Position numbers and translations under genes: made by a program. From NCBI RefSeq assembly GCF_963921235.1, contig NC_086108.1:32800001-32864000 (forward strand): a stretch of 64,000 bases of DNA, written 5' to 3'. The notes under the pieces were generated by a model, which ran no database searches, was not told the origin of the DNA, and worked only from the letters and a program-made list of their open reading frames with translations. This DNA is from Mobula hypostoma (Eukaryota). Shown here piece after piece: positions 1,754 through 62,369 of the stretch (the first letter of the stretch is position 1; the number at the start of each line of letters is the position of its first letter).

Positions 1754-2390
1754 TAGGGTTGCCAACTGTCCCGTATTTGCCGGGACATCTGGTATAGTGG
1801 GCTAAATTGGTTTGTCCCATACGGGACCGCCCTTGTCCTGTATTTCCCCCGCTAAGGTACAGCGTTCCTATGAAAACTTTCGTGCCGAAATGGTGTAAAG
1901 CGAAGAAGCAATTACCATTCATTTATATGGGAAAAATTTTTGAGCGTTTCCAGACCCAAAAAATAACCTACCAAATCATACCAAATAACACATAAAACCG
2001 AAAATAATTCTAACATATAGAAAAAGCATTAATGATATGATAAATACACAGCCTATATAAAGTAGAAATAATGTATGTACAGTGTAGTCGGGAAGATTAA
2101 GCCAAAACCGATTTGTGGGGAAAAAAAATCGGCACGTACGCGCATATGCACGTCACATATGCAAACGTCATGCATGCACACACAGGAGCCCGCGCAAGGC
2201 TTCATGGTCATGGCAGTCTTCCTCGGGGTACACACAAGTGTCTCGTCAACACACACCAAAAATGCTGGTGAACGCAGCAGGCCAGGCAGCATCTATAGGA
2301 AGAGGTACAGTCGACGTTTTCGGCCGAGACCCTTCGTCAGGATTTGACTGCTACTTTTGTCCCTTATTTGGGAGAAAGTTGGCAACCCTA
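1754..2390. mobile_element. Internal hAT-like element with TAGGGTTGCCAACT TIRs, nested in the MITE
   Basis: TAGGGTTGCCAACT at 1754 and AGTTGGCAACCCTA ending 2390; no clear TSD. Confidence 0.7.
2247..2342 (-). mobile_element. Penelope-like element (PLE) 3'-end mini-copy with hammerhead motif
   Basis: Minus strand reads TCCTGACGAAGGGTCTCGGCCGAAAACGTCGACTG...GCTGCCTGGCCTGCTGCGTTCACCAGCA; homologous to 11564..11661. Confidence 0.85.
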
Positions 2391-5590: not shown

Positions 5591-8067
5591 GGATCCTCTT
5601 ACGTCAGCTATTGAATTGTGGCAGCCTCATTCACCCTCAAGCTGCTCTCAACCTGTATCCATTGAATTCCAATTGGCGACGATCAAGAATATGAAAGCAG
5701 ACATTATTTCCCTCCTAGCCTGCGGCTACTTGTCACTCTTAACCGAGTTCAGCTGACATGTAAACAAAAGAATAAAGTAACAGTGAAATATATTTAACCT
5801 AATCAACACATTCTGGAGCCTTTGAGACATACAATGCAGTACCAAACCGTATGCAACCTTTGTCTTTTTGGTTGCATCTAAGGAGCTTTATGAGGTCGTC
5901 TTTCCTTTAGCGACAGGGAATCAGCTCGATACATTGCCACTCTGATTGACCAAAGGAATAAACAACACATTTTGCTCTTCACTTCCTGTATGTTCACACT
6001 TTAAAAACTGGCTGTGTAGCTCAATATAGATCAAGAACATTGTTCCTGGAAGAATAACACCAATGTATATCAAAGCTGGCTCTTCAATCAAAGTATAAAT
6101 ACAAACATGGAGATAAATATGGTTTTGTGGAATTTAATTCAGACATATCAAGGAAGGGAAAGAAAAGACAAATCTTGGAATGTTTGATCTTTGACAATGG
6201 CTGAAGTTTCAGTAAACTACTTCACATTAGATTAGATGTGTAGGCTTAACTTTCTGAGGTTATTCATATTTTCAGTTGGTTTCTATCAGCAGCTGCTCCT
6301 CTACCCAGCCCAATGAGTCCCCTTGCCTTACACCGTAGATATGTTTGACGTCCTCAAATGTTCTTCCTTGACGATGAGAAAGAGTGAGAGAGCTATGTAC
6401 ACAAAGTATCTCCTTTTCCTCTTCACAATGACTCCCTTTCCTTTTCCATGACTCTTTTGATCTTAAGAGTTCAATCCACATCATCTCTATATCACAATGA
6501 GCAATGTCGCCAAGAGATATTCAATGTTCTCCAGCATGTAGCCCTGGGTACGTTTTTATAAAATCCACCATATCCCTCATTAATTTCATCCCCCATCAAT
6601 AAAGACTGCAACACCATTCGGGGAAAGCTGGTTTTATTGCACCTTGATGGTTTACCTGCAGGGTTATCTGTTTATAGTGGGCATGAAGCTTCCTGCCTTC
6701 AGCCACCAAATGACACTGAACTTCATCCCACAACTCTGCAGGAATAGTCATCCATTACTTTTAAAACACATTGTGTTATCTTATACCTCTGCTTCTCTTT
6801 ATATTTGGTTCTAAGGATGTTGTCTCATCCACTCATTGAAAATAATCTCTATAACCACCCATCATCTCCCCACCAACCTGACCAACCCTTTGCAGGGGAG
6901 TCCTGTAATTTACTCCTCCTTTTAAAAGAAGACACGTATACTTGAGACTCGGGCCTTCATTGAACTTCGAACTTAAAGAACTTAAACTAATTTAATCTAC
7001 CTCCACTTCAAACACTACATGTTGTTCTCATTTTATTAAATTATTCTCAATTCTACACAGCAATTGCATCCTCTCTTAATGCAATTGTTTAGTTGCAAAT
7101 AGAACTTCAATACTATCCTTTTTTAAAAATCTTCTAAAGCATTAAAAATAGGCAAACCAGTCAGGGAAACATTTTTCAATTTCTCATCATCAGTCTGCTG
7201 GGAAATTGACCCATGTTCTTAAAAACAATGAAAAGTTGTAAATCCCCACAGGTTGCACAAGAGTCAAAAGATTTACTGCACCACAGATGAAAAGTAAATA
7301 CTTAGCCATGTTTCCATGGCAACAAGTGCACATAAACCATGAGTGTGTAGTATTAATTTACTGACATTTAATATCATCAGCCAAGCTTAAGTGTTCCAGT
7401 CTATTTATAGGCAGCAATGACCAGAATGCTAACCTGCAATTCTTGGCTCAGTGTAGTCAAAAGCTGTCAAAGGCCATTAGAACGGTGTGGGAAAAATCAG
7501 TCGCAGCTTTAAGGGAGACCTCAGAAGGAAAATGCATACCACCTGGGACTATATTGTGTTTGTGTTGATAGTAATGGATTAAATGCCTGTGTTGGCCCGG
7601 GTTTGCAGTGAGATGCTGGCAAAACTGTAAAGGAACTTGCCTATGACAAGTCATTGTCTGCAACTTCCACTCTTCAGGGCATGTGCATGTGAGTACAGAC
7701 ATTCTGAAATTGCTGTCATGCATTCACCACTGAGCAGTAGGCCGCACTCTGATACTGGGCCTCCTATGGAATTCAGTGCGGAAGCAGGAACTTGAGCAGA
7801 ATTCCCCCCGTCCTCATGTGTTGCCTTTAGCAACAAATCCTGGCTGAGATGAGCATCAAGATTGGTGAACATTTCTCAGGCTACATGGAAGGACATAGTT
7901 GTGAAGACCTCAAGTAAGTGTTCACGAATGTAAAAAGGATCTTCAGAAAAGTTCTCCTAATGTTAAAACAACACTTCAATTTTGTAATCGGAATTTTTAA
8001 AACACATCACAGATTGCTAATTTGGAGTTTTTAAAATCCAGAAATATGGAGTAGAATAAAGAGTAGA

Positions 8068-8554
8068 AGTTTCGGGCTGAGACCTTTCCTCGGGACTGAA
8101 AGGAAGGAGACAGAGACACACACAAAATGCTGGAGGAGCTCAGCAGGCCAGGCAGCGTCTATGGAAAAGAGTACAGTCGACGTTTCAGGCCGAGATCCTT
8201 CAGCAGCCCCTGCTGAAGGGTCTCAGCCCGAAACTTTTGTACTCGTTTCCATAGACGCTGCCTGGCCTGCTGAGTTCCTCCAGGATTCTGTGTACGTTGC
8301 TCGGATTTCCAGCATCTGCAGATTTTCTCTTGTTTGCTGTGGAAAGAGACAGAAGCTGGAATAAGAAGGTGGTGGGGGAGGGGAAGTAGTATAACCTTGC
8401 AGATGACAGGTGAAACCAGGTGAGGCAGCAGGTGGGTGTGTGGGAGGGCGGGGGGTGGAATGAATTGAGAAGCTGAGAGGTGATAAGTGGAAGAGGTAAA
8501 GGGCTGAAAAAGAGAAGTAATCTGATAGAAGTCAATAAGCATCTGCAGAATCTC
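8068..8554 (-). mobile_element. Older PLE 3'-region fragment hosting the 8115..8340 palindrome; its inverted tail is split by the CR1 at 8555 and resumes at 10357..10367
   Basis: GTTTCGGGCTGAGACC...GGACTGAAAGG then a purine-rich UTR homologous to the reverse complement of 11280..11600; tail AGCATCTGCAGAATCTC|TTGTGTTT split by the CR1. Confidence 0.7.
8115..8340. mobile_element. Fold-back (palindromic) PLE mini-element, older subfamily
   Basis: Inverted arms meet at CTTCAGCAG-CCC-CTGCTGAAG (centre 8207..8209); extra tail on the right arm; near-perfect 13-bp TSD GGAA(G/A)GAGACAGA at 8102..8114 and 8341..8353. Confidence 0.85.
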
Positions 8555-11173: not shown

Positions 11174-11661
11174 CTAAAGATGAAGCCACACTCAGGTTGG
11201 AGGAACAACACCTTATATTCCGTCTGGGTAGCCTCCAACCTGATGGCATGAACATTGACTTCTCTAACTTCCGCTAATGCCCCACCTCCCCCTCGTACCC
11301 CATCTGTTACTTATTTATATACACACATTCTTTCTCTCACTCTCCTTTTTCTCCCTCTGTCCCTTGCCCATCCTCTGGGTCCCCCCCCCACCCCTCCTTG
11401 TCTTTATTCCCAGACCTCCTGTCCCATGATCCTCTCGTATCCCTTTTGCCAACCACCGGTCCAGCTCTTGGCTCCATCCCTCCCCCTCCTGTCTTCTGCT
11501 ATCATTTTGGATCTCCCCCTCCCCCTCCTACTTTCGAATCTTTTATTCACTCTTCCTTCAGTTAGTCCTGACGAAGTGTCTCAGCTTGAAACGTCGACTG
11601 CACCTCTTCCTAGAGATGCTGCCTGGCCTGCTGCGTTCACCAGCAACTTTGATGTGTGTTG
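11174..11661 (+). mobile_element. 5'-truncated Penelope-like element 3' end (GIY-YIG C-terminus, pyrimidine-rich UTR, hammerhead)
   Basis: Encodes 'DEATLRLEEQHLIFRLGSLQPDGMNIDFSNFR*', typical of the PLE GIY-YIG C-terminus; exact 17-bp TSD CAGTAATCACATTTACT at 11157..11173 and 11662..11678. Confidence 0.9.
11564..11599 (+). ncRNA. Minimal type I hammerhead ribozyme motif (PLE-associated)
   Basis: AGTC-CTGACGA-AGTGTCTCAGCTT-GAAAC-GTC-GACT: conserved core boxes, helix I AGTC/GACT, palindromic ACGT in place of helix III; stem II mutated. Confidence 0.7.
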
Positions 11662-14631: not shown

Positions 14632-16772
14632 TTAACATCTAGACAGACAATCAGCGATCACATTATCTTTACCCTTAATATGAGTGATCAAAATATTGTA
14701 CTCCTGTAACATTAGACTGTATTATTAAACTGGAGTCTAATTTCCTTAACCCTTTTCCTTAACAGTCATAGTGGCATGACCAAATTCACTTTCAGCTAAG
14801 TTAATAGTTAAGTTAGCTTTTGAAAGTCTCTCAAATAGTTTCTCCACCACCGTAATATGTGTTTTCCACGTATTATTCCCTGTAACTAAATCATCAATAT
14901 AGGCATCTGTATCTTTTAATCCCTAAATCACGCTATTAATCATCCTCTGAAAAGTACCTGGTGCATTCTTCATCCCAAATGGAAGAACATTATATTCATA
15001 TAACCCAGATGGGGTTACAAATGCTGAAATCTCTCTACCTCTATCCGTCAATGGAACACACCAATAACCTCTTAACAAATCAATTTTTGTAAGGAATTTG
15101 GCCTGTCCAACTTTATCCACACAATCATCTATCCTAGGGATTGGATATGCATCAGTTTTTGTCACAGCATTCACCTTTCTGTAATCCGTACAAAACCTAA
15201 TACTATGGTCTGGCTTAGGCACCATAACACACGGTGAACTCCAATTTGAATTAGAATGTCTAATAATATCATTCTCTAACATATACTTAAATTCTTGTTC
15301 AGCCATTTCACATTTTTCTCTGTTCATTGGATATGGATGTTGTTTTATGGGTTTTGCATCTCTAACATCTACATCATGTGTAGCTACGGTGGTTCTTCTA
15401 GGGACGTCTGGAAATAAATCTCTATATTTAAAAAATTAACTGTTTCATTTGCTCTCTCTGCTCTGGCTGTAAATGAGCTAATTTTTCATCAAGATTTTCT
15501 AGAATTTTTGAATTTGGTAACCTGGCTGAAATAATATTGGGTTTAAAATGAGTTTCAGACGAATCCTCCAGTAAGTTTTCATCACGATCAGACTCATTAT
15601 TGATCACAACAGTCATAGTAGCAATCTCTCTCTCATAACAACACACATAAAAGTTGCTGGTGAACGCAGCAGGCCAGGCAGCATCTCTAGGAAGAGGTGC
15701 AGTCGATGTTTCAGGCTGAGACCCTTCGTCAGGACACATAATACGGTCTCTCTCATAATATGGTTTTATCATATTTATATGACACAGCTGTGTTGTCTTT
15801 CTCTGATCTGGGGTTTTTACCATATAATCCACATCATTTACTTTAGATTTAATCTCATAAGGACCATGGAATTTGGCTTGTAATGGGTTCGTTTGCACTG
15901 GGAAAAGAACCAACACCTTATCTCCAGGCTTAAATGACCTCATCCTTGCTTCCTTATCACACCACGTCTTCATCTTCTCTTGAGCTAACCTTAAATTTTC
16001 CTTGGCCAAGCTACAAACTTTATACAATCTTTCTTTAAATTTCAAAACATAATCTAGCAAATTAGTGTGTACTTCTTTATTAATCCACTGTTCCTTCAAC
16101 AAAGCCAAAGGTCCTCGAGCTGTATGCCCAAACACAAGTTCAAAAGGACTAAAACCTAATGATTCCTGTACTGCCTCCCTTACTGCAAAAAGTAGTAAAT
16201 GTATACCTTCATCCCAGTCCTTTTCATTTTCATTTTCTACATAATATGTCCTAATCATAGTTTTTAGTGTGGAATGAAATCTTTCCAAGGCTCCTTGTGA
16301 TTCTGGATGATAGGCTGAGGAAATAATCTGTTTTGCTCCCAGTTTATAAACTATCTGCTGAAACAACCCCAACATAAAATTACTACCTTAATCTGATTGT
16401 ATTTCCTTAGAGAAACCAAAATAAGTAAAGAATTTTATAAGAGCCTTTATCACAGTTTTGGCTGTTATATTCCTAAGAGGTACTGCCTCTGGAAACCTGA
16501 CGCTGTGCGCATAATAGTTAATAAATATTGATGTCCAGTTTTAGTTTTTGGCAAAGGTCCTACACAGTCTACAATGATTTTTGAGAATGGCTCACCAAAT
16601 ACTGGAATTGGTTGTAGTGGGGCCACTGGAATAACCTGATTAGGTTTACCCACAATTTGACACGTATGACACGTTTTACAAAATAATACCACATCTTGTC
16701 TTAAACTAGGCCAATAAAAATGTTTAGAAACTTTGTTTATAGTTTTCTTTACACCTAAATGACCACCCAAAG
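14632..16772 (-). pseudogene. Gypsy (Gmr1-like) pol remnant in the order integrase, RT, RNase H end
   Basis: 'GHLGVKKT...FYWP...CKTCHTCQ' (IN zinc finger), 'YHPESQGALERFH' (rve), 'IRFCTDYRKVN...LPFGMKNAPGTFQR' and YIDD near 14890 (RT), 'WSLMLQEYNILITHIKGKDNVIADCLSRC*' (RNase H end); frameshifts, stops, and a deletion covering most of RNase H. Confidence 0.9.
15639..15746 (-). mobile_element. PLE mini-copy inserted in frame into Gypsy pol
   Basis: 12-bp TSD TCTCTCTCATAA at 15627..15638 and 15747..15758; minus strand GTCCTGACGAAGGGTCTCAGCCTGAAACATCGACTG... Confidence 0.9.
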
Positions 16773-17493: not shown

Positions 17494-18955
17494 ATAACAC
17501 ATACAAAATGCTGGAGGAACTCAGCTGGTCTAGCAGCAACTACGGAAGATAGAGGTGTTCCTAAGATGAAAGTAAACAGCGACTCCTTTACTTTCATCTT
17601 AGGAAACACCTCTATCTTCACCTTTATTATCTTTGTTTTTCCCTTTCAGGGTTCTTTAGAAGACACTGACCTGGTGCTACATACTGACTTTGGTTCTTTG
17701 CGGGAATGGGACCTGCTCTCGGGGTTTCATGACTGGCCGTTATCCAACCTGCCAAGGGCGTGGCCTAAGAGTTTGGCTCGCCTTTTGAGGCCTAGGATCT
17801 CGGGGCTCTGGAAACGGGCGGATCAAAAGTCTGTGTCCCAACAGACCAGCGGTGTCATGGGAGCCGGAAGATCTTTGGCTGTGTGCCCAAAGACCTGAGA
17901 TCATTGGGCACAGAGCTTGAAAAAAGTGATGCAATGGACTTTTAACATTGTAAACCAGTGAGTTGTTTGTTATGTCTCCCCTCTCGCTGTGAAATGGAGA
18001 CATCTCTTCCTCCCTTATTAGGGAAAGAGAGAACCTGTGGTATGTTGAATACCGGGTGAATGGAGTACTGCAAGTCTGTGTCTTTGCTGTTGCTTTGCTG
18101 CATGCTTGAGTGCTCGGTGGTGGGTGTCGATGCTTTTTTTTTGCTGGTGCGGGGAGAGGGATTGTTGCTTGCTGCCACTTACATGTAGGAGGGAGGGGAG
18201 CTGGAGGAACTTTGGGGTTCTAACATTTAACTGTCATTCATTCTTTGGGGCACTCATCTGTTTTCGTGGATGGTTGCAAAGAAAAAGCATTTCCAGATGT
18301 ATATTGTATACGTTTCTCTGACATTAAATGTACCTTTGAAACCTTTGAAGAATAAGTAGTCAACGTTTCGGGCTGAGAGCCTTCATCAGGTCTGGAACTG
18401 GGAGGGGAAGAAGGCAGGATGAGAAGGTGGGGAGAGGAGAAGGAATGGAAGGTGATGGGTGAAGTCAGGTGAGGGGGAAAGTAAGTGGGTGGGGGAGGGG
18501 AGGAAGTAAGAAGCTGGGAGGTAATACTGTAGTTGGAAAAGGGAGGAAAAAGAAGCAATTTGCTAAGAGAGGAAAGTGGACCATGGGAGAAAGGGAATGA
18601 GGAGGGGCACCAGGGGCTGTGATAGGCAGGTGAGGAGAAGTGGTCAGAGGGGAGCCAGAGTGGGGACTGGAAGAAGGGTCATTTACCGGAAGTTAGAGAA
18701 ATCGATGGTCATGCCGTCAGGTTGAAGGCTACCCAGACAGAATATGAGGTGCCTGGATAGTCTCCAACCTGATGGCATTAACATCAATTTCTCTTATTTC
18801 TGGTAATTATTCCCCTCCACCTTCCCTCTTCTTCCATTTCCCATTCTGGCTTCTCCTTACCTCTTTTCTCCTCACCTGCCTATCACCTCCCCCTGGTGCC
18901 CCTCCTCCTTCCCTGCTACCCTGGATCTCAGGCATCTGCAGAATCTCTTGCGTTA
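17494..18955. mobile_element. PLE with inverted arrangement (long minus arm, plus arm with tail), interrupted at 17545..18348
   Basis: ACAAAATGCTGGAGGAACTCAGC (17503) continues at 18350 with GTCAACGTTTCGGGCTGAGAGCCTTCATCAGG; inverts near 18750 into CTCCAACCTGATGGCATTAACATC...GCATCTGCAGAATCTCTTGCGTT. Confidence 0.75.
17545..18348 (+). mobile_element. Unclassified non-coding retroelement with a 5' hairpin and a Rex1/L2-like 3' tail
   Basis: Interrupts the PLE; starts with an inverted repeat of about 32-bp arms; ends TTTCTCTGACATTAAATGTACCTTTGAAACCTTTGAA. Confidence 0.5.
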
Positions 18956-20507
18956 CCTAAAGTATCTCATGAATCTGGAAAGGGGCCACCAACATTGTCC
19001 CTGCACATTTCTCCAAATCCTCTAGAAGAATAAGTGAACCCATTTCTGCTTCCTCTTGTAGACCAGCATTAACACCCATGATTTTTTAAGAACAAACAGA
19101 TCGTATCATTTGCACGCCCGACACCAAACCCTTGGATTAGGCACTTTATTCCATGCTCTGCCACAATGAAAACCTCAGGCCCCTGTGTTGTAAGCATGCT
19201 GAAGCCTAGCTTAAGCAGGCAGAAGGAGCAAGCTGCCTCACAAATCATTCTCCAGCGCAGGTTGTTGTCTAATCCTGTTAGGTACTTCCTCCCTCCTCTG
19301 TGGGTAGGGTCTGCAGCTCCAACAGTTAGCTTCATTGGCCACTTCAGAACCCAGCAAACTGGAATTCGAAGCAAGTTATCCACAATCCAAAGAGCCTACC
19401 TAGATCAGGAGGAGATGAAGGAAAAGATCATGAACTAGAAGGAAATATAAACAAAAGAAGATTGGGAGATGGAGACTGATAAAAAGTTACAAATAAGAAA
19501 CAGATTGTATCAGCAGAATAAGATAGATAAGATAATGATCAAGTGAGTAAAGGTCTCGGCGTGGCGAATGTCATTGGAGGGTGGGAAGCGATTTTGACGT
19601 TTTTGAGGTATGACCCTAAAATTACCATAGTTTTTCCGTGTAAGCAGTTCGGTCACACCTAAAATTGTAACAGTTAATGACCTTAATCTGATCAGCCTCA
19701 ATTCTGAAAAGGCATCATCTGACAAGGCTGGCATTCTATCCCACGAAAAGGCCAAATGGTTGCAGAGTTATTTTTATGTCTTCACTGAGGTTGATTAAGA
19801 GGGTAATTGAAGTTACTGAAGGTAAATCAAGGTCAGGTTCAGAGTGAAAACTGTGCACCTTAACAATCATCCAGTTGGAGACGAAAACATAATCCAATAT
19901 AGTCCCCTAATTAATAAATGTTGATTTAATACTTAGAGAAATTACACCTTGTTTCTTTGTGATGTATTTGCCCTCAAGTAAAATGCTAGGCTAAGCTATA
20001 ATATTGTGAACTTGCAATATATGATCGTAAAACACTGAGTTAATGTACCCATGTGAACCAATAAAACTGATCTCACACTAACTGCAAGATTTATCTGGCC
20101 TTAAACTCGTTGTGTTGCCTGTGATTATACTTATGGTTTTTACTATATTATTTTTGCAAACATAGAAATAATTACTAAAGCAATATTACATATGTAATTG
20201 TTCATCATTCAGTTCGACAAGCCTCTGGCAAGCTGGATATCGAAAGGTTTATAGCCAACACTGCATTTTAATCATGATGCCTGTACATAATGTTACAAAC
20301 ATTGTACAATAGTCCATGCTGTACAGTTCAAAGTTAATTAAATTAGCCTTCCAATTAAGTACTCCTCCACATAAGAACAATAAATTTCATACTATATTTT
20401 CTGATAATAATAGTTGCTAATCCAAGGATTTCCAGTGTTTTTTTTTAACTACAGATTGCCAAAGCAACACTGCAGCACCTCCTCCGTTAGACAAACACTT
20501 GAATAGT

Positions 20508-21660: not shown

Positions 21661-22030
21661 ACAAACACAAGAGAGTCTGCAGGTGCTGGACATCCAAGCA
21701 ACAGACACAAAATGCTGGAGGAACTCAGCAGAACAGGCAGCATCTATTGTCGTTCCTTCATATGCCTTGTGCTGCATCAGGCAGCATTTCTGCTACTTCT
21801 GTCGCATTTGATTGTTTTTTTATCAGGCTGAGTTGCTAACTTGACGCCCAACCCAGCACAGGTGGAAAGGAGCTGGCCAGATTCGATCTCGGGACCATTT
21901 GCCTCAAAGTCTGGTGCTGATACCACTACATCACTGGCTGGATTGGAAAAAGATGATGAGAAGTCAGAGTAAGAACTTCTCATCTTTTTTTCCAGTCCTC
22001 ATGAAGAGTCTTGGCCTGAAACGTCGACTC
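21661..22030. mobile_element. Degraded inverted PLE remnant (minus arm with tail; plus-strand hammerhead-like segment)
   Basis: AAACACAAGAGAGTCTGCAGGTGCTGG...ACAAAATGCTGGAGGAACTCAGC (21663..21745); CCAGTCCTCATGAAGAGTCTTGGCCTGAAACGTCGACT (21992..22029). Confidence 0.65.
21750..21939 (-). mobile_element. tRNA-derived SINE
   Basis: Minus strand has A-box-like GATGTAGTGGTATCAGCAC and B-box-like GATCGAATCTGG, then GCTGGGTTGGGCGTCAAGTTAGCAACTCAGCC. Confidence 0.55.
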
Positions 22031-26032: not shown

Positions 26033-28825
26033 ATTGTGGCTCAGAAGGGTAGGGAAAGGAAGAGGATGGCAGCAGTGATGGGGGACTCTATAGTTAGGGG
26101 GGTCAGACAGGCAATTCTGTGGACGCAGGAAAGAAACGCGGATGGTAGTTTGCCTCCCAGGTGCCACAGTCCGGGATGTTTTTGGTCGCATCCAAGATAT
26201 CCTGAAGTGGGAAGGAGAACAGCCAGAGGTCATGGTACATATTGGTACCAGCGACATAAGCAGGAAAAGAGAGAAGGTCCTGAAAACAGACTACAGGAAG
26301 TTAGGAAGGAAGTTGAGAAGCAGGACCACAAAGGTAGTAATCTTGGGATTGTTTCCTGTGCCAAGTGACAGTGAGTATAGGAATAGAGTGAGGTGGAGGA
26401 TAAATGCGTGGCTGAGGGATTGGAGCAGGGGCAGGGATTCAGATTTCTGGATCATTGGGACCTCTTTTGGGGCAGGTGTGACCTCTACAAAAAGGACAGG
26501 TTGCACTTGAATCCAAGGGGGACCAATATCCTGGTGGGGAGGTTTGCTAAGGCTATTGGGGAGAGTTTAAACTGGAATTGCTGGGGGGTGGTAACCGAAC
26601 TGAAGAGACGGAAGGAAGAGGCGGTTGGCTCCCAAATAGAGAAAGCTTGGAGACAGTGCGAGAGGGAGGATAGGCAGGTGATAGAGAAGGGACACGCTCA
26701 GACCGATGGTTTGAGATGTGTGTATTTTAATGCGATGAGTATTATGAACAAAGCAGATGAGCTAAGAGCGTGGATCAGTACTTGGAGCTATGATGTTGTG
26801 GCCATTACAGAGACTTGGAGGGCTCAGGGGCAGGAGAGGTTACTTCGAGTGCCAGGCTTTAGATGTTTCACTAAGGACAAGGAGGGAGGCAAAAGAGGTG
26901 GGGGCATTGCAATGCTGATCAGAGATAGTGTCACGGCTGCAGAAAAGGAGGAAGTCATGGAGGGATTGTCTACTGAGTCTCTGTGTGTGGATGTTAGAAA
27001 CAGGAAGGAGCCAATAACTCTACTGGGTAAACAACAGGAATTCTGCAGATGCTGGAAATTCAAGCAACATACATCAAAGTTGCTGGTGAACGCAGCAGGC
27101 CAAGCAGCATCTATAGGAAGAGGCGCAGTCGACGTTTCAGGCCGAGACCCTTCGTCAGCCGAAGGGTCTCGGCCTGAAACGTCGACTGCGCCTCTTCCTA
27201 TAGATGCTGCTTGGCCTGCTGCGTTCACCAGCAACTTTGATGTATGTAACTCTACTGGGTGTTTTTTTAATAGACCACCCAATAGTAACAGGGACATTGA
27301 GGAGCAGATAGGGAGACAGATTCTGGAAAGGTGCAATAATAACAGGGTTGTCTTGGTGGGAGGTTTTAATTTTCCAAATATTGATTGGCATCTTCCTAGA
27401 GCAAGGGGTTTAGATGGGTGGAGTTTGTTAGATGTGTTCAAGAAGGTTTCTTGACTCAATATGTAGATAAGCCTACAAGAGGAGAGGCTGTACTTGATCT
27501 GGTATTGGGAAATGAACCTGGTCAGGTGTCAGATCTCTCAGTGGGAGAGCATTTTGGAGATAGGGAACACAATTCTATCTCCTTCACCATAGCTTTGGAG
27601 AGGGATAGGAACAGACAAGTTAGAAAAGTGTTTAATTGGAGTAAGGGGAAATATGAGGCTATCAGGCAGGAACTTGGAAGCATAAATTGGGAATAGATGT
27701 TCTCGGGGAGATGTACAGAAGAAATGTGGCAAAAGTTCAGGGGATATTTGTGTGGAGTTCTGCATAGGTACGCTCCAGTAAGACAGGGAAAGGATGGTAG
27801 GGTACAGGAACTGTGGTGTACAAAGGCCGTTGTAAATCTAGTCAAGAAGAAAAGAAGAGCTTACAAAAGGTTCAAAAAACTAGGTAGTGATAGAGATCTA
27901 GAAGATTATAAGGCTCGCAGGAAGGAGCTTAAGAGTGAAATTAGAAGAGCCAGAAGGGGCCATGAGAAGGCCTTGGTGGACAGGATTAAGGAAAACCCCA
28001 AGGCATTCTACACGTATGTGAAGAGCAAGAGGATAAGACGTGAGAGAATAGGACCAATCAAGTGTGACAGTGGAGAAGTGTATATGGAACTGGGAAGATA
28101 GCAGAGGTACTTAATGAGTACTTTGCTTCAGTATTCACTACAGAAAAGGATCTTGGCGATTATAGGAGTGACTTAAGCGGACTGAAAAGCTTGAGCATGG
28201 AGATATTAAGAAGGAGGATGTGCTGGAGCTTTTGGAAAACATCAAGTTGGATAAGTCACCGGGACTGGACGGGTTGTACCCCAGGCTACTGTGGGGGGCA
28301 AGGGAGGAGATTGCTGAGCCTCTGGCAATGATTTTTGCATCATCAATGGGGACGGGAGAGGTTCCCGAGGATTAGAGGGTTGCGGATGTTGTTCCCTTAC
28401 TCAAGAAAGGGAGTAGAGATAGCCCAGGAAATTATAGATCAGTGAGTCTTACTTCAGTGGTTGGTAAGTTGATGGAGAAGATCCTGAGAAGCAGGATTTA
28501 TGAACATTTGGAGAGGCATAATATGAAAAGGAGTAGTCAGCATGGCTGCACATGTTGACTCTGTGGTTAAGAAAGCATACGGTGCATTGGCCTTCATCAA
28601 TCATGGGACTGAGTTTAGGAGCCAAGAGGTAATGTTGCCCCTATATAGGACCCTGGTCAGACCCCACTTGGAGTACTGTGCTCATTTTTGGTTCCCTCAC
28701 TATAGGAAGGATGTGGAAACCATAGAAAGGGTGCAAAGGAGATTTACAAGGATTGGGGAGCATGCCTTATGAGAATAAGTTGAGTGAACTTGGCCTTTTT
28801 TCCTTTGGAGTGACAGAGGATGACC
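26033..28825 (+). mobile_element. Degraded CR1 LINE (ORF1 esterase part, APE, partial RT with large internal deletion near 28543)
   Basis: GDSIVRG, VHIGTSD and HLNPRG (SGNH esterase ORF1); FNA.SI.NK, ITETW and RPPNS (APE); PGNYR.VSL and QHG joined directly to the C-terminal 'VVKKAYG'. Confidence 0.9.
27029..27246. mobile_element. Young fold-back (palindromic) PLE mini-element
   Basis: Perfect inverted arms 27068..27154 and 27160..27246 (87 bp), 5-nt spacer TCAGC, 39-bp extra tail on the left arm; exact 14-bp TSD TAACTCTACTGGGT at 27015..27028 and 27247..27260. Confidence 0.95.
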
Positions 28826-29949: not shown

Positions 29950-30939
29950 CTATAGCATCTCAATAGTACACCAGTCTCCAGGTATTCCAGAGGGCCACCA
30001 ATGCTCTCCTGGGGTATAATCGTTATGGAACTGATATCGTACATTATGAATCTTATCTATTGACCATTGGATATGTTCAGCCAAATCTGTTATACTTTCT
30101 GCCACATCAGGGATGTATGTACAACACTCCTGGCCTATTACAGTGCAGGCGTCTGCTTCCTTTGCCGTGGTATAATCCAAAGCCATTCTGTTCTGTAGGG
30201 TTACTGCCCACATGGCTAGCATCTCGGCCGATAACCGTGTCAGAGCCTGTTTCATTTGCTTCAAAACCAGGGCAGTCTCATTGACTAACACCTCCATGAC
30301 TGAGGTCATCAGGATGACCCGCCTCGATAACCAGGCTGTACCATACAGGGGAAAAACAATCATCCAGAACTGATCAGACTCCGTGATACCCTTTCTCTTC
30401 TGGGTCGGCCGGTTGGCCAGATCATCAACGTGATACACATAGCAGCCGGACCAGCCCTTGGGGAGCTGCACACCCAGCACGTGCCATTCAACTTGGGAAA
30501 CCAACCGGCCTGAAGAGAGTATATTGCCACAGTAATAGTGCCACACTGCTCTGTACCGTTAACGTGCATAGAGGTACACAAGCTATTCCCAATCAGAACC
30601 TGTCCATCTGAATGACAAGGGCAACTATTCCCGGATCATTTAATGTTGGTACTTCAGATTTACTCTGATCACGTGCTGGTACAACAGTTGGACAATGGCT
30701 GACAAGTTCACGATGGCTTCATTCCATGCTCAGTACTGAGTGTCTATCAGAGGGACGGGTATCAGTGCTCCCATTCCTGATTCCGTTGGAACCTGGGAGC
30801 ACACCCAACACTTTGATATGCTCAGACGATCAGCATACTCGTGCACTATTCTGAGAAGGGTGTTAGTCGAGATCACCGTCGCTGCTGTGGCGAGGAGTGG
30901 CAGCAATGTCATGGCTATTTCTGCAAGGGAGGGAAGCAC
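29950..30939 (-). pseudogene. env: Retroviral envelope remnant (SU CxxC; TM with ISD and CX6CC)
   Basis: Signal-peptide-like start and 'SKCWVCSQVP' (30730..30939); heptad, 'LQNRMALD' immunosuppressive domain and 'CTVIGQECCTYIPD' (29950..30546); frameshifted. Confidence 0.9.
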
Positions 30940-40542: not shown

Positions 40543-41590
40543 AAGACATAGGAGCAGAATTAGCCCATTTGGCCCAGTGAGTCTTCTCTGCCATTCTATT
40601 GTGGCTGATTTATTATCCCTCTCAACCCTATTCTCCTGCCTTCTCCCTGTAACCTTTGATGCCCTGATTAATCAAGAAACTGTCATCCTCTACCTTAAAT
40701 ATACCCAATGACCTGGCCTGCACAGCAGTCTGCGACAATTAATTCCACATATTTACTACCCTCTGGGCAAAGAAATTTCTCCTCATTTCTGTTCTAAATA
40801 GATGTCCTTCTATTCTGAGGCTGTGCCCTCTGGTCCCAGACTCCTTCACTATAGGAAATCTCCTCTCTACACCCTCTCTATCTGGGACTTTCAATATTCG
40901 ATAGGTTTTAATGAGATCTCCCTCATTCTTCTTAACCCCAGTGAGTACAGGCCCGGAGCCATCAAACAGTCCTCATATGTTAATCCATTCATTCCTGGGA
41001 TCACTCTCACGAACCTCCTTTGGATTCTCTCCGATGCCAGAAAATCTTTTCTTAGCTAAGGGCCCAAGATGGTTCATAATACTCCAGAAACAAGAAGAGA
41101 TCTGCAGATGCTGGAAATCCGAGCAACACACACAAATTGCTGGAGGGACTCACAATACTCCAAGTGCGGTTTGAGCATTGCTTTGTAAAACGTCAGTATT
41201 ACAATTTTGCTTTTATATTCTAGTCCACTGAAAATGAATGCTAACATTGCATTTGTCTTCCTTCCCACCAACTCAGCCTGCAAATTAACCTTTAGGGAAT
41301 CATGCTACAAATATCTCCAAGTCACTTTGCACCTCTGGTTTTTGAATTTTCTCAACTTTTAGAAAATAGCCCACCCACCTTTATTCCTTCTACCAAAGTG
41401 TATGACCACGTACTTCCCTACACTATATTCCATCTGCCTCTTCTTTACCCATTCTTCCAATCTGTCTAAGTCTTTCTGTAGATACCCTGCTTCCTCAACA
41501 CTACCTGCCCCTCCAACCATCTTCATGTCGTCCGTAAATCTGGTCACAAAGCCATCAATTCCTCCATCCACATCATTGAGATATAATCCT
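40543..41590 (-). mobile_element. Degraded CR1 3' portion
   Basis: 'GIDGFVTRFTDD', 'YKAMLKPHLEYC'; CR1 tail at 40543. Confidence 0.9.
41087..41149 (-). mobile_element. Very short PLE tail insertion inside CR1
   Basis: AAACAAGAAGAGATCTGCAGATGCTGGAAATCCGAGCAACACACACAAATTGCTGGAGG; TSD TCA(T/C)AATACTCCA at 41074..41086 and 41150..41162. Confidence 0.8.
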
Positions 41591-56858: not shown

Positions 56859-57794
56859 ATGAGTGTGAGGGCAGTTTGCTGTTCTCGGTGTCGGATGTGG
56901 GAGGCCCTGGAGTCTCCAAGCCTCCCGGACGTCTACATCTGCGCCAAGTGCATCAAGATGCAGCTCCTAAGGGACCGTGTTACGGAACTGGAGCTGCAGC
57001 TCGATGACCTTCGTCTGGTCAGGGAGAGTGAGGAGGTGATAGAGAGGAGATGCAGGCAGGTGGTCACGCCGGGGCCACGGGAGGCAGACAAGTGGGTCAC
57101 GGTTAGGAGGGGGAAGGGGAAAAGTCAGGTAATAGGGAGTACCCCGGTGGCTGTGCCCCTTAACAACAGGTACTCCCGTTTGAGTACTGTTGGGGGGCAC
57201 AGCTTACCCGGGGGATGCGACAGTGGCCGTGCCTCCGGCACAGAGTCTGGCCCTGCAGCTCAGAAGGGTAGGGCAAGGAAGAGGAGGGCAGTTGTGATAG
57301 GGGACTCAATAGTAAGGGGGTCAGATAGGCGATTCTGTGGACGCAGTCCAGAGACCCGGATGGTAGTTTGCCTCTCTGGTGCCAGGGTCCGGGATATTTC
57401 TGATCGTGTCCAAGATATCCTGAAGTGGGATGGTGAGGAGCCAGAGGTCGTGGTACATATAGGTACCAATGACATAGGTAGGAAAAGGGATGAGGTCCTG
57501 AAAGGAGAATATAGGGAGCTAGGAAGGGAGTTGAGAAAAAGGACCGCAAAGGTAGTAATCTCGGGATTACTGCCTGTGCCACGCGACAGTGAGAGTAGGA
57601 ATGCGATGAGGTGGAGGATAAATGCGTGGCTGAGGGATTGGAGCAGGGGGCAGGGATTCAAGTTTTTGGATCATTGGGACCTCTTTTGGCGCAGGCGTGA
57701 CCTGTACAAAAAGGACGGGTTACACTTGAATCCTAGGGGGACCAATATCCTGGTAGGGAGATTAGCGGGGGCTACTGAGGTGACTTTAAACTAG
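56859..57794 (+). CDS. CR1 ORF1 protein (CxxC zinc finger, coiled coil, SGNH esterase domain)
   Basis: Uninterrupted 311 aa: 'CSRC...CAKC', leucine-rich coil, 'PLNNRY', 'VIGDSIVRG', 'HIGTND', 'DGLHLN'. Confidence 0.92.
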   Translation: MSVRAVCCSRCRMWEALESPSLPDVYICAKCIKMQLLRDRVTELELQLDDLRLVRESEEVIERRCRQVVTPGPREADKWVTVRRGKGKSQVIGSTPVAVPLNNRYSRLSTVGGHSLPGGCDSGRASGTESGPAAQKGRARKRRAVVIGDSIVRGSDRRFCGRSPETRMVVCLSGARVRDISDRVQDILKWDGEEPEVVVHIGTNDIGRKRDEVLKGEYRELGRELRKRTAKVVISGLLPVPRDSESRNAMRWRINAWLRDWSRGQGFKFLDHWDLFWRRRDLYKKDGLHLNPRGTNILVGRLAGATEVTLN

Positions 57795-59885
57795 AATGGT
57801 TGGGGGGTGGGAATCAAATTAAAGAGGCTAGGTGTGAGGAGGTTAGTTCACAACAGAGGGATGGGAACCAGTGCAAAGAGACAAAGGGGTGTAAAGTGAG
57901 GGTAGAAGCAAAAAGTACAAAGGAGAAAAGTAAAAGTGGCAGGCTGACAAATCCAGGGCAAGCATTAAAAAGGGCCACTTTTCAACATAATTGTATAAGG
58001 GCTAAGAGAGTTGTAAAAGAGCGCCTGAAGGCTTTGTGTGTCAATGCAAGGAGCATTTATAATAAGGTGGATGAATTGAAAGTGCAGATTGTTATTAATG
58101 ATTATGATATAGTTGGGATCAGAGAGACATGGCTCCAGGGTGACCAGGGATGGGAGCTCAACGTTCAGGGATATTCAATATTCAGGAAGGATAGACATGA
58201 AGGAAGGGGAGGTGGGGTGGCGTTGCTGGTTAAAGGAGAGATTAACGCAATAGAAAGGAAGGACATAAGCCGGGAAGATGTGGAATCGATATGGGTAGAG
58301 CTGCGTAACACTAAGGGGCAGAAGACGCTGGTGGGAGTTGTGTACAGGCCACCTAACAGTAGTAGTGAGGTCGGAGATGGTATTAAACAGGAAATTAGAA
58401 ATGTGTGCAATAAAGGAACAGCAGTTATAATGGGTGACTTCAATCTACATGTAGATTGGGTGAACCAAATTGGTAAAGGTGTTGAGGAAGAGGATTTCTT
58501 GGAATGTATGCCGGATGGTTTTTTGAACCAACATGTCGAGGAACCAACTGGAGAGCAGGCTATTCTGGACTGGGTTTTGAGCAATGAGGAAGGGTTAATT
58601 AGCAATCTTGTCGTGAGAGGCCCCTTGGGTAAGAGTGACCATAATATGGTGGAATTCTTCATTAAGATGGAGAGTGACATAGTTAATTCAGAAACAAAGG
58701 TTCTGAACTTAAAGAGGGGTAACTTTGAAGGTATGAGACGTGAATTAGCTAAGATAGACTGGCAAATGACACTTAAAGGGTTGACGGTGGATATGCAATG
58801 GCAAGCATTTAAAGGTTGCATGGATGAACTACAACAATTGTTCATCCCAGTTTGGCAAAAGAATAAATCAAGGAAGGTAGTGCACCCATGGCTGACAAGA
58901 GAAATTAGGGATAGTATCAATTCCAAAGAAGAAGCATACAAATTAGCCAGAGAAAGTGGCTCACCTGAGGACTGGGAGAAATTCAGAGTTCAGCAGAGGA
59001 GGACAAAGGGCTTAATTAGGAAGGGAAAAAAAGATTATGAAAGAAAACTGGCAGGGAACATAAAAACGGACTGTAAAAGCTTTTATAGATATGTAAAAAG
59101 GAAAAGACTGGTAAAGACAAATGTAGATCCCCTGCAGACAGAAACAGGTGAATTGATTATGGGGAGCAAGGACATGGCAGACCAATTGAATAATTACTTT
59201 GGTTCTGTCTTCACTAAGGAGGACATAAATAATCTTCCAGAAATAGTAAGGGACAGAGGGTCCAGTGAGATGGAGGAACTGAGCGAAATACATGTTAGTA
59301 GGGAAGTGGTGTTAGGTAAATTGAAGGGATTAGGGGTGGATAAATCCCCAGGGCCAGATGGTCTGCATCCCAGAGTGCTTAAGGAAGTAGCCCAAGAAAT
59401 AGTGGATGCATTAGTGATAATTTTTCAAAACTCTTTAGATTCTGGACTAATTCCTGAGGATTGGAGGGTGGCTAATGTAACCCCACTTTTTAAAAAAGGA
59501 GGGAGAGAGAAACCAGGGAATTATAGACCGGTTAGCCTAACATCGGTGGTGGGGAAACTGCTAGAGTCAGTTATCAAAGATGTGATTACAGCACATTTGG
59601 AAAGCGGTGAAATCATTGGACAAAGTCAGCATGGATTTGTGAAAGGAAAATCATGTCTGACGAATCTCATAGAATTATTTGAGGATGTAACTAGTAGAGT
59701 GGATAGGGGAGAACCAGTGGATGTGGTATATTTGGATTTTCAAAAGGCTTTTGACAAGGTCCCACACAGGAGATTAGTGTGCAAACTTAAAGCACATGGT
59801 ATTGGGGGTAAGGTATTGGTGTGGCTGGAGAATTGGTTAGCAGACAGGAAGCAAAGAGTGGGAATAAACGGGACCTTTTCAGAAT

Positions 59886-60121
59886 TTAAACGCAAACAAC
59901 AGGAATTCTGCAGATGCTGGAAATTCAAGCAACATACATCAAAGTTGCTGGTGAACGCAGCAGGCCAAGCAGCATCTATAGGAAGAGGCGCAGTCGACGT
60001 TTCAGGCCGAGACCCTTCGTCAGGAGTCCTGACGAAGGGTCTCGGCCTGAAACGTCGACTGCGCCTCTTCCTATAGATGCTGCTTGGCCTGCTGCGTTCA
60101 CCAGCAACTTTGATGTATGTT
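59886..60121. mobile_element. Young fold-back (palindromic) PLE mini-element
   Basis: Perfect inverted arms 59931..60025 and 60027..60121 (95 bp), 1-nt spacer, 45-bp extra tail on the left arm; exact 12-bp TSD CCTTTTCAGAAT at 59874..59885 and 60122..60133. Confidence 0.95.
60025..60060 (+). ncRNA. Minimal type I hammerhead ribozyme motif (predicted cleavage after GUC at 60056)
   Basis: AGTC-CTGACGA-AGG GTCTCGG CCT-GAAAC-GTC-GACT: both core boxes, helix I, helix II and palindromic ACGT helix III; a mirror copy lies on the minus strand at 59992..60025. Confidence 0.8.
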
Positions 60122-62369
60122 CCTTTTCAGAATGGCAGGCGGTGACTAGTGGGGTACCGCAAGGCTCAGTGCTGGGACCACAGTTGTTTACAATATATAT
60201 TAATGACTTGGATGAGGGAATTAAATGCAGCATCTCCAAGATTGCGGATGACACGAAGCTGGGTGGCAGTGTTAGCAGTGAGGAGGATGCTAAGAGGATG
60301 CAGGGTGACTTGGATAGGTTGGGTGAGTGGGCAAATTCATGGCAGATGCAATTTAATGTGGATAAATGTGAAGTTATCCACTTTGGTGGCAAAAATAGGA
60401 AAACAGGTTATTATCTGAATGGTGGCCGATTAGGAAAAGGGGAGGTGCAACGAGACCTGGGTGTCATTATACACCAGTCATTGAAAGTGGGCATGCAGGT
60501 ACAGCAGGCGGTGAAAAAGGCAAATGGTATGCTGGCATTTATAGCGAGAGGATTCGAGTACAGGAGCAGGGAGGTACTACTGCAGTTGTACAAGGCCTTG
60601 GTGAGACCACACCTGGAGTATTGTGTGCAGTCTTGGTCCACTAATCTGAGGAAAGACATCTTTGCCATAGAGGGAGTACAAAGAAGGTTCACCAGATTGA
60701 TTCCTGGGATGGCAGGACTTTCATATGAAGAAAGACTGGATGAACTGGGCTTGTACTCGTTGGAATTTAGAAGATTGAGGGGGTATCTGATTGAAACGTA
60801 TAAGATCCTAAAGGGATTGGACAGGCTAGATGCAGGAAGTTTGTTCCCGATGTTGGGGAAGTCCAGAACGAGGGGCCACAGTTTGAGGATAGAGGGGACG
60901 CCTTTTAGGACCGAGATTAGGAAAAACTTCTTCACACAGAGAGTGGTGAATCTGTGGAATTCTCTGTCACAGGAAACAGTTGAGGCCAGTTCATTGGCTA
61001 TATTTAAGAGGGAGTTAGATATGGCCCTTGTGGCTATGGGGGTCAGGGGGTATGGAGGGAAGGCTGGGGCGGGGTTCTGAGTTGGATGATCAGCCATGAT
61101 CATAATAAGTGGCGGTGCAGGCTCAAAGGACCGAATGGCCTACTCCTGCACCTATTTTCTATGTTTCTATGTTTCTAAACCCAATTCTGATCAATGGGGA
61201 GACCCAATTTGGTAATAGTATTAAATGGAATTTCATTTTAGGGCACCCAAGTTAAGAGAAATCCAAATTTTTTGACTTGTATGTTAATACAGCACCCTTT
61301 ACAATACTTGTGATGTTTACTCTGAGGGGAACCAAAAAAAGGAAAATGAATATCGAATGCCTATCTCTGGTATTGATTACTTCCAACATCATTGGCATGG
61401 CTAAACCACTCCTCGGACAATTCTTTACATCTCAATTTAGCAAAGAGCAGCACAAAGAACCCATGGCGAAGCATAAGCATCTGGAGCCCTATCTGACAAC
61501 CCTTACCTATGTTCCATTGGGCTCCTTAAATGAAATAAAATGTTTGGGTTGAGGCAGCGACAGAGAAAAAGAGTTATAGTTTTGAAAAATCCCAACAATT
61601 CCATTCCCAAGGAACCAACCTTCTAAATGTTTTATTTTATAGGGAATAGAGATGAATAACTGACAAGAAAAATTATCACCTGAATTAAATGGTAATTACT
61701 AACTTTCTATGCCAAATTGAATAACCAATTAATGTGCAAAGGCATTAACTTCATGACACTCAGATTAAGGGCAAGCTGCTACTTTCAAAGATGTGGGCAA
61801 ACCACTCAACCCACAATGATTCACAAATAATGAGGTGCCTGAATCATGCCACTATTGATATTAATATTCACAGACTCCTTCCCTCACTCCACCCCAGCAA
61901 ATTCTGGCATTCTCATGTTTATTAGGCACTTGTTGAAGTTATGCCATTACAGTTTTCTTCATGTTTAAGTTTATGTCAGTGTTTCTTGGTGAAGAAACAG
62001 CTATCATTACTTTGAGATCCAATTTATTTTTAAAAAAGAACTTAATAGTTGAAAAATATATGCCAGCATTTTGTTATTCCAAACAAATATCTTTAGTTTA
62101 TAATTTCCACAACTGCTGCTACAATTCTCCTTTTTTTTAACTCGGGCATTAGGTGTTAAAACAAATCTAATGAATTTGCATTTTATTGTGTGTATCAATT
62201 TTTTATTGCCTCATATATTTTGCAATGTAATGCTAAACAAAAATAATATAATCAAGTTGCCTTCCTATTCGTTAGTTTCATAAACTTTTAAAATGCTCTT
62301 CATTAGGGGTTTGATCACAGGGTCTTAATTTAATAAAGGATACATTCTTGTATATTACTTTCCACTGAA

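What the first reader, a model, noticed from the sequence alone, without database searches (positions are those of the whole stretch)
59886..60121. Tiny, recently mobile palindromic retroelement built from two back-to-back hammerhead ribozyme motifs
Seen: a 236-bp insertion with a 12-bp TSD made of a 45-bp tail and a perfect 95-bp inverted repeat with a 1-nt spacer. The fold point sits in the 5' strand of helix I of a minimal hammerhead, so both DNA strands carry a CTGACGA...GAAAC-GTC core. A nearly identical element sits at 27029..27246, and an older version at 8115..8340. Established: Penelope-like elements carry minimal, dimer-dependent type I hammerheads in their pseudo-LTRs and can insert with an inverted upstream copy bearing a short 3' tail. 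Inference: this lineage repeatedly yields an ORF-less minimal product of about 220-240 bp. It may be a by-product of PLE integration or a self-propagating non-autonomous unit. Read-through transcription would give a perfect dsRNA hairpin of about 90 bp.
Basis: partly seen in the sequence, partly recalled or inferred. Interest (0 to 1): 0.8.

Follow-up and report, generated by a model that had tools for sequence, protein, structure and literature searches.

The report
Miniature Penelope head-to-head insertion in ray
This 236-base mirror-image insertion is real and is likely a one-off footprint of an abundant Penelope-type jumping gene rather than a self-spreading ribozyme element; its layout is already known, but five of eleven copies nearby stop at the same spot, which likely marks where the copied RNA ends or is blocked.

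Summary
The structure is real: 236 bp, 12-bp TSD, 45-nt tail and a perfect 95-bp inverted repeat, inside a LINE RT gene. It is two head-to-head stubs of the hammerhead-bearing end (pLTR) of a Neptune-type Penelope-like element (PLE), very abundant in this ray-like genome. Inverted pLTR plus tail plus TSD is a described PLE layout.

'Two back-to-back ribozymes' overstates it. Both strands carry the core only in this copy, helix I is only 4 and 2 bp, and the perfect hairpin is predicted to bury the motif (~63 kcal/mol). The three short palindromes have three different centres, and the outer ends match known-type RT start sites. This favours separate integration products over a propagating unit.

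What remains of interest: 5 of 11 scorable insertions in the window end within 9 nt at the hammerhead's 5' edge, not at its cut site. That edge is also a branch-point/polypyrimidine/AG site. Likely mechanism: two cDNAs primed from both target strands stop at that boundary and join. This scan noted the same pattern before, in this genome and in others.

The parts
59874..59885 (+). left target-site duplication (12 bp)
59886..59930 (-). 45-nt PLE tail, present on one arm only (3' end of the tail-bearing arm, outer RT start)
   Evidence: tail concept PMC11167929
59931..60025 (-). tail-bearing arm: PLE pLTR stub read on the - strand, 5' end equivalent to native position 11566; hammerhead core with only 2 bp of helix I
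60026..60026 (.). centre base G; together with A60025 it matches the native AG just before TCCTGACGA
60027..60121 (+). tail-less arm: pLTR stub ending at the internal start site shared with single-arm copies; minimal hammerhead 60025-60060 with 4-bp helix I
60122..60133 (+). right target-site duplication (12 bp)
57779..61080 (+). host LINE ORF2 (endonuclease + RT; CR1-like by recall), split by the insertion
27029..27246 (.). sister palindrome E2: 14-bp TSD, 88-bp IR, different centre and tail start
8115..8340 (.). older palindrome E3 of an older subfamily, inserted into another copy of the same PLE family just upstream of its hammerhead
11174..11661 (+). longer single-arm 5'-truncated copy with the ORF C-terminus (GIY-YIG end), pyrimidine-rich UTR, native hammerhead (core at 11568) and 17-bp TSD; used as the native ruler
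15639..15746 (-). single-arm short copy, 12-bp TSD, 5' end at native 11565 plus 12 extra nt resembling the right flank
2247..2342 (-). single-arm short copy, 5' end at native 11566, no TSD found
18345..18960 (.). older, larger head-to-head pair whose centre (~18750) lies in the ORF end, about 350 nt upstream of the hammerhead; boundaries approximate

Best explanation
This is a 236-bp insertion of two head-to-head stubs of a Penelope-like element's hammerhead-bearing end, likely built once, during insertion, when the element's enzyme likely primed two cDNAs from the two nicked target strands and both likely stopped at the same boundary on the RNA before being joined. Shown by sequence: TSD, tail on one arm, arms derived from a PLE pLTR, different centres in each palindrome, 5' ends clustered at the hammerhead's 5' edge, outer ends at two positions about 36-45 nt apart. 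Taken from literature (Anolis Poseidon in vitro, PMC11167929): both target strands are cut and extended, RT starts at two internal sites bracketing the tail, and hammerhead cleavage is not needed. Inferred: one cDNA starts at the tail end and the other at the internal site; both end at native 11564-11572; their 3' ends are joined by 0-1 nt of microhomology or 1-2 untemplated bases; fill-in gives the perfect palindrome. The cause of the shared stop is open. My odds: RNA 5' end (initiator-like site) 0.4; the 3' splice site there (bound splicing factors or a very short first exon) 0.35; a local RNA hairpin 0.2. The hammerhead is a passenger and is predicted to be inactive in the palindrome.
For: Centres differ in 3 of 3 short palindromes, although the E1 and E2 arms have 0 differences over 87 compared positions in all four arms. 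Tail-less arms end at ruler positions 95 and 93, the same place as 3 of 3 young single-arm copies (96, 96, 96); tail arms end at 140 and 132. So both outer ends look like priming sites, not truncations. The E1 centre needs no untemplated base under a two-cDNA join: the tail arm runs to native T11566, the other arm starts at native A11564/G11565. A fourth head-to-head pair folds about 350 nt further upstream, its two arms again ending within about 25 nt of each other. A contig of run X10 joins 11179 to 11578 on opposite strands, so unequal arms exist too. 5 of 11 scored insertions end in one 9-nt window; simulated P = 0.0002 (uniform), 0.003 (exponential, mean 150), 0.026 (mean 80). None of the 11 ends at the predicted cut site. 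PLE identity: the 33-aa ORF end matches P0013 (24 of 28 identical), which has an RT YIDD motif, a CX2-5CxxC linker and a GIY-YIG-like motif. Abundance: 152,984 and 124,664 contigs laid in two DNA-type runs.
Against: Only one window and 11 events; several 5' ends of old copies were placed by eye, and detection favours copies of at least 40 nt. No genome was held, so no genome-wide junction table could be made. The loose-end peak at 11564 (39 contigs in each of X1 and X5) is confounded: its consensus ends like the upstream sequence of an older subfamily. Different centres could also arise after insertion by deletion at the hairpin tip; E2's centre equals E1's with 9 nt replaced by 1. The in-vitro two-site priming was shown for a Poseidon element, not a Neptune one. 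A second search for gene models entering at the acceptor found none.
Confidence: 0.68

Rival explanations
1. Still a one-off integration product, but made by self-priming: one cDNA (or an antisense template) folds back at its 3' end and copies itself, as proposed for Adineta Penelope palindromes.
For: PMC3846280 (passages read) interprets junction palindromes as self-priming. E1's centre can be drawn as a 3-nt loop and E2's as a 5-nt loop. The native RNA and cDNA have a predicted hairpin whose loop (11562-11567) overlaps the hotspot (-7.0 kcal/mol as RNA, -4.1 as DNA). It explains identical arms directly.
Against: None of 3 centres keeps the native cDNA loop expected from folding at that hairpin. 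Fold-back from the tail-less cDNA cannot create the tail; fold-back from the tail cDNA needs untemplated bases that happen to equal the native sequence, and does not explain why the second arm stops at the single-arm start site. The hairpin is weak or differently placed in 2 of 3 old copies.
Confidence: 0.17
2. A self-propagating non-autonomous palindromic unit: a ~220-240-nt hairpin RNA is retrotransposed as a whole by the PLE enzyme.
For: Similar size in 3 copies; E1 and E2 share 3 diagnostic bases absent from the 3 other young copies and not listed among variants above 10% of depth; non-autonomous PLE derivatives exist (retrozymes, bioRxiv 10.64898/2026.07.22.740005; Chlamys MRC1, PMC8557442).
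Against: Three different centres, different tail starts, tail-less ends at the priming site, no shared transduced flank, and a continuum of single-arm and longer copies. A hairpin of about -206 kcal/mol is a poor RT template, and the ribozyme fold costs 63-65 kcal/mol. Described retrozymes are direct tandems, not inverted.
Confidence: 0.08
3. Assembly artefact (fold-back chimera) or chance.
For: Perfect palindromes are a known assembly hazard (recalled); I did not lay reads across this junction.
Against: Exact 12-bp TSD (chance about 6e-8 at fixed offsets), restored host frame, one-sided tail, and the same layout in three other copies of different age.
Confidence: 0.02

Closest known systems
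EN+ PLE insertions with inverted pLTR, optional tail and TSD (Adineta vaga Pen2a/Pen3, PMC3846280; general scheme in PMC8557442 Fig. 2)
   Same: Head-to-head inverted 5'-truncated copy, tail on one side only, TSD, palindrome at the junction.
   Different: Here both copies are reduced to about 95 nt, so the whole insert is a palindrome with no ORF; the tail is 36-45 nt; centres cluster at the hammerhead's 5' edge.
[quoted passage not shown]
   Same: CUGANGA core, extra base before helix II, no loop 3, palindromic ACGU at helix III, 4-5 bp helix I; dual motifs on opposite strands 100-700 bp apart were already seen in Schistosoma; in D. virilis the intron end maps to the 5' end of helix I.
   Different: The two motifs abut and truncate each other's helix I; sharks and rays are not mentioned in that paper's main text (0 hits for 'shark').
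Poseidon_Ac in-vitro mechanism (Frangieh et al. 2024, PMC11167929)
   Same: Two internal RT start sites define the tail; both target strands are cut and extended; hammerhead cleavage is dispensable.
   Different: Different clade (the linker motif here points to Neptune/Nematis type); the parts I read do not describe how the inverted copy is joined or a 5' stop site.
Non-LTR retrozymes (bioRxiv 10.64898/2026.07.22.740005)
   Same: Short, ORF-less, hammerhead-bearing, related to PLE pLTRs.
   Different: Retrozymes are direct tandem repeats with consecutive complete hammerheads; this is an inverted pair whose motifs lie on opposite strands.

Membership tests
EN+ Penelope-like element insertion | Linked to an ORF with RT and C-terminal GIY-YIG endonuclease | tested here: met
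   Arms are collinear with the copy at 11174-11661, whose 33-aa ORF end matches P0013 (RT and GIY-YIG-like motifs by pattern) and P0010 (weak Pfam GIY-YIG hit, E 0.002, below the cut-off). No full-length element was recovered.
EN+ Penelope-like element insertion | Inverted 5'-truncated pLTR copy, head to head | tested here: met
EN+ Penelope-like element insertion | 30-40 bp tail at one end only | tested here: met
   45 nt in E1, about 36-39 nt in E2; slightly longer than the published range in E1
EN+ Penelope-like element insertion | Target-site duplication | tested here: met
   12, 14, 13, 17 and 12 bp in five copies; none found for 2247-2342
Neptune/Nematis-type PLE | CX2-5CxxC linker upstream of GIY-YIG | tested here: met
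   Present in P0010 and P0013, 2 of 4 relatives checked; feature as defined in PMC8557442. Shown in relatives, not in the window itself.
Neptune/Nematis-type PLE | RT phylogeny groups with Neptune | not tested
   No reference set held.
Minimal type I hammerhead | Core CUGANGA / GAAA / NUH with helix II and palindromic helix III | tested here: met
   Both strands of E1, one strand of E2, neither of E3
Minimal type I hammerhead | Helix I of 4-5 bp | tested here: inconclusive
   4 bp on E1 +, 2 bp on E1 -, 0 on E2 -, 5 in the native copy
Minimal type I hammerhead | Self-cleavage (as dimer or protein-assisted) | not testable with these tools
   Predicted penalty of 63-65 kcal/mol inside the palindrome versus 10.9 in the single-arm context
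Non-LTR retrozyme | Direct tandem units, each with a complete hammerhead | tested here: not met
   Inverted pair; motifs on opposite strands
Self-propagating non-autonomous family (SINE/MITE-like) | Copies share internal junction and ends | tested here: not met
   3 of 3 centres differ; tail starts differ; small sample

The most novel reading that the evidence does not exclude
These palindromes are the fossil record of an undescribed step of PLE transposition: both cut target strands prime cDNA at the 5'-proximal start sites of one RNA, both run about 95-140 nt to a fixed boundary set by a conserved 3' splice site (or RNA start) at the hammerhead's 5' edge, and the two ends are joined head to head. 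This would explain inverted pLTRs in general and tie PLE intron retention to 5' truncation: the enzyme copies unspliced RNA and collides with splicing factors bound at the acceptor.
Probability: 0.3. Interest if true: 0.6.

Novelty: new member of a known kind. Interest (0 to 1): 0.35.

Why it matters
As an object it is an ordinary, miniature PLE footprint. Its value is mechanistic. How PLEs make their inverted pLTR is still unexplained in the papers I read (self-priming was proposed in PMC3846280; later steps are called unvalidated in PMC11167929). Very abundant, young palindromes with readable junctions make two-ended priming versus fold-back testable, and the clustered stop points to an RNA boundary that can be mapped by 5' RACE or CAGE. 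If transcribed inside host genes, such perfect hairpins would also be a source of dsRNA, which was not tested here.

Tried and rejected
No whole genome was held, so no genome-wide BLAST. Rfam found no hammerhead family; the mir-3926 matches (37-52 bits against a gathering score of 82) are generic hairpin hits and were rejected. Contigs laid on the single-arm copy showed abundance but no fold-point census: tables were cut (1789 and 206 loose-end rows not shown), and most listed loose ends are subfamily divergence. The 11564 peak is confounded by an older subfamily, and depth by bin was not used. RNA-type runs X10 and X16 are guesses and contigs only, so they say nothing on strand, start or level. 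Hammerhead cleavage as the source of the 5' ends: rejected, 0 of 11 scored ends lie at the cut site. A shared first exon at the junctions: not found; the 12 extra bases at 15735-15746 resemble the right flank, and the 2343 flank has no match longer than 8 nt to the UTR. A search with the older subfamily's frame found no gene models. P0013 has no Pfam hit at E<=0.01 and no PDB match at E<=1. The bacterial promoter/terminator scan is not relevant to a vertebrate. A sequence look-up of earlier findings gave nothing. Left out of the clustering count: the copy at 21994-22029 (5' end ambiguous) and two weak hits at 61859 and 48332. Paper searches that found no description of ray/shark palindromic PLE stubs or of the stop site: (open-access library only; supplements not read; Repbase/Dfam entries and Lunse et al. 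2017, recalled, were not available and may already describe this family).

Full report
Observation. Window 59886-60121 is flanked by an exact 12-bp duplication, has a 45-nt unpaired segment and then a perfect 95-bp inverted repeat around base 60026. It interrupts a LINE ORF2. The part before matches Exo_endo_phos and RVT_1 5-107, the part after matches RVT_1 115-194, and skipping the element plus one duplication restores an open frame through the site. E2 (27029-27246) has a 14-bp TSD, an 88-bp perfect repeat and a 5-nt spacer. E3 (8115-8340) has a 13-bp TSD with one mismatch and arms 76 of 92 identical.

What the arms are. A BLAST of the window with the arm and with a longer copy gave a series of relatives. 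The copy at 11174-11661 has a 17-bp TSD and carries, 5' to 3', a 33-codon ORF end, about 290 nt of pyrimidine-rich UTR, the hammerhead (core at 11568) and the same downstream 90 nt. That peptide retrieved 35 proteins at E<=0.001. The seven I looked up are ray or skate gene models (Hypanus, Hemitrygon, Rhinoraja). P0013 matches it at 24 of 28 residues and has an RT YIDD motif, a CX2-5CxxC linker and a GIY-YIG-like motif. PMC8557442 (passages) gives that linker as the mark of Neptune and Nematis. The arm's own open frame hit two Mobula gene models. So the host is likely a ray and the element a Neptune-type PLE; no full-length copy or tree was obtained. The family is very abundant: 152,984 and 124,664 contigs from two DNA-type runs of two organisms were laid on the 621-nt copy.

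The hammerheads. The native motif fits the minimal type I hammerhead of PMC4209133 (parts 1-2 of 4 read): core, extra base before helix II, ACGU helix III without a loop, 5-bp helix I. In E1 both strands have the core, but contiguous helix I is 4 bp (+) and 2 bp (-). E2 has the core on one strand only, with no helix I. E3 has a changed core in both arms. A transcript of E1 folds at -206 to -208 kcal/mol as one hairpin, and forcing the core open costs 63-65 kcal/mol, against 10.9 in the single-arm context. The two motifs lie on opposite strands, so one transcript cannot supply both halves of a dimer. The ribozyme is therefore predicted to be a passenger. PMC11167929 (parts 1-2 of 4 read) found hammerhead cleavage dispensable for insertion in vitro.

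Unit or by-product. All four E1/E2 arms are identical over 87 compared positions and share three bases absent from the three other young copies, yet the centres of E1, E2 and E3 all differ and the tail arms start 8 nt apart. The tail-less arms end at ruler 95 and 93, where the three young single-arm copies end (96, 96, 96). If a palindromic RNA were the template, that end would be an arbitrary truncation and the centre would be conserved; the opposite is seen. A fourth head-to-head pair near 18345-18960 has its centre about 350 nt upstream, again with both arms ending close together, and one X10 contig joins 11179 to 11578 on opposite strands. Against this reading: tip deletion after insertion could also diversify centres, and E2's centre could be derived from E1's.

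The shared stop. In native coordinates the 5' ends are 11566 and 11564/5 (E1), 11568 and 11572 (E2), 11567 and 11568 (E3), 11565 (15735) and 11566 (2342). Counting one value per insertion, 5 of 11 fall in 9 nt; the other six lie about 11174, 11220, 11380, 11604, 11611 and 11633, some placed by eye, and one ambiguous copy and two weak hits were left out. A scan statistic over any 9-nt window gave P = 0.0002, 0.003 or 0.026 depending on the null. None lies at the predicted cut site. In the read data, 11564 is among the six listed loose ends in both X1 and X5 (39 contigs each, agreement 0.43 and 0.41), but its consensus resembles an older subfamily's upstream sequence, so I count it as weak. Three of the 16 listed contig pieces carry long unlike flanks, and they leave at 11562, 11565 and 11568 (a selected list).

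What lies at that spot. (a) A 3' splice site: majority contig letters at 11542, 11546 and 11548 give TACTCAC or TACTAAC (branch-point consensus recalled), then a pyrimidine run and AG at 11560-61 and 11564-65. Two older copies also have pyrimidines then CAG before TCC. One of two Mobula models enters at V-S-P-D-E, consistent with the first AG; the other is uninformative, and a second search found none. In D. virilis the intron end maps to the 5' end of helix I (PMC4209133), with the start 46 nt upstream of a 75-nt intron (PMC2377424, sections 14 and 18 read). (b) An initiator-like TCAGT (consensus recalled). (c) A predicted hairpin whose loop is 11562-11567 and which hides CUGA, weak or shifted in 2 of 3 older copies. 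These cannot be separated here.

Mechanism. PMC11167929 shows both target strands cut and extended and two RT start sites bracketing the tail. I infer that each nick primes a cDNA, one from the tail end and one from the internal site, that both stop at the same boundary, and that their 3' ends are joined. E1's centre then needs no untemplated base. The published alternative is self-priming (PMC3846280, passages). It explains identical arms but not the tail asymmetry, and none of three centres keeps the native loop.

Comparison and novelty. Inverted pLTR, one-sided tail, TSD and junction palindromes are described (PMC3846280; PMC8557442, passages), as are opposite-strand hammerhead pairs 100-700 bp apart (PMC4209133). 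Retrozymes are direct tandems (bioRxiv 10.64898/2026.07.22.740005, abstract and passages), so membership fails. I found no paper on ray or shark miniature palindromes or on the stop site; subscription papers, supplements and repeat databases were not seen. My reading was noted, before I saw that this scan had reported the same pattern several times in this genome and in others; those notes are unchecked and are not counted as support.

Verdict. A real, young, miniature PLE insertion of a known layout; not a two-ribozyme self-propagating element on present evidence. Interest 0.35, carried by the testable junction mechanism.

Noticed in passing
window 8050-8114 and about 8341-8530: E3 sits inside an older antisense copy of the same PLE family; its TSD lies in the pyrimidine tract just upstream of that copy's hammerhead (self-insertion).
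   Followed up: partly
window 18345-18960: Older, larger head-to-head PLE pair with centre in the ORF end; the right arm appears internally deleted but ends in a tail-like sequence.
   Followed up: partly
window 41087-41149, 21662-21747, 17495-17552: Even shorter stubs of the older subfamily (63 bp with a 13-bp TSD, about 86 bp, about 60 bp) lacking the hammerhead.
   Followed up: partly
P0001, P0002, P0003, P0004, P0008, P0031: Ray and skate gene models contain peptides from this PLE (hammerhead frame or ORF end) fused to host genes, suggesting frequent exonisation or model contamination.
   Followed up: partly
window about 18688 (- strand) and 18804 (+ strand): Older copies have a donor-like GGTAA across the PLE stop codon; splicing from there to the AG before the hammerhead would join the ORF end in frame to the open frame over the hammerhead. 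The young copy at 11272-11277 lacks the GT. Untested idea.
   Followed up: no
window 29950-30558: ORF resembling a retroviral envelope transmembrane segment (LQNR-type motif and cysteine cluster; family recalled, not searched).
   Followed up: no
window 14923-16387: Gypsy-like LTR retrotransposon RT/integrase fragments (recalled motifs), with the 15639 PLE stub inserted in them.
   Followed up: no
window 27029 and 59886: Both young palindromes landed inside LINE ORF2 sequences and carry the same minority haplotype 33 kb apart.
   Followed up: partly
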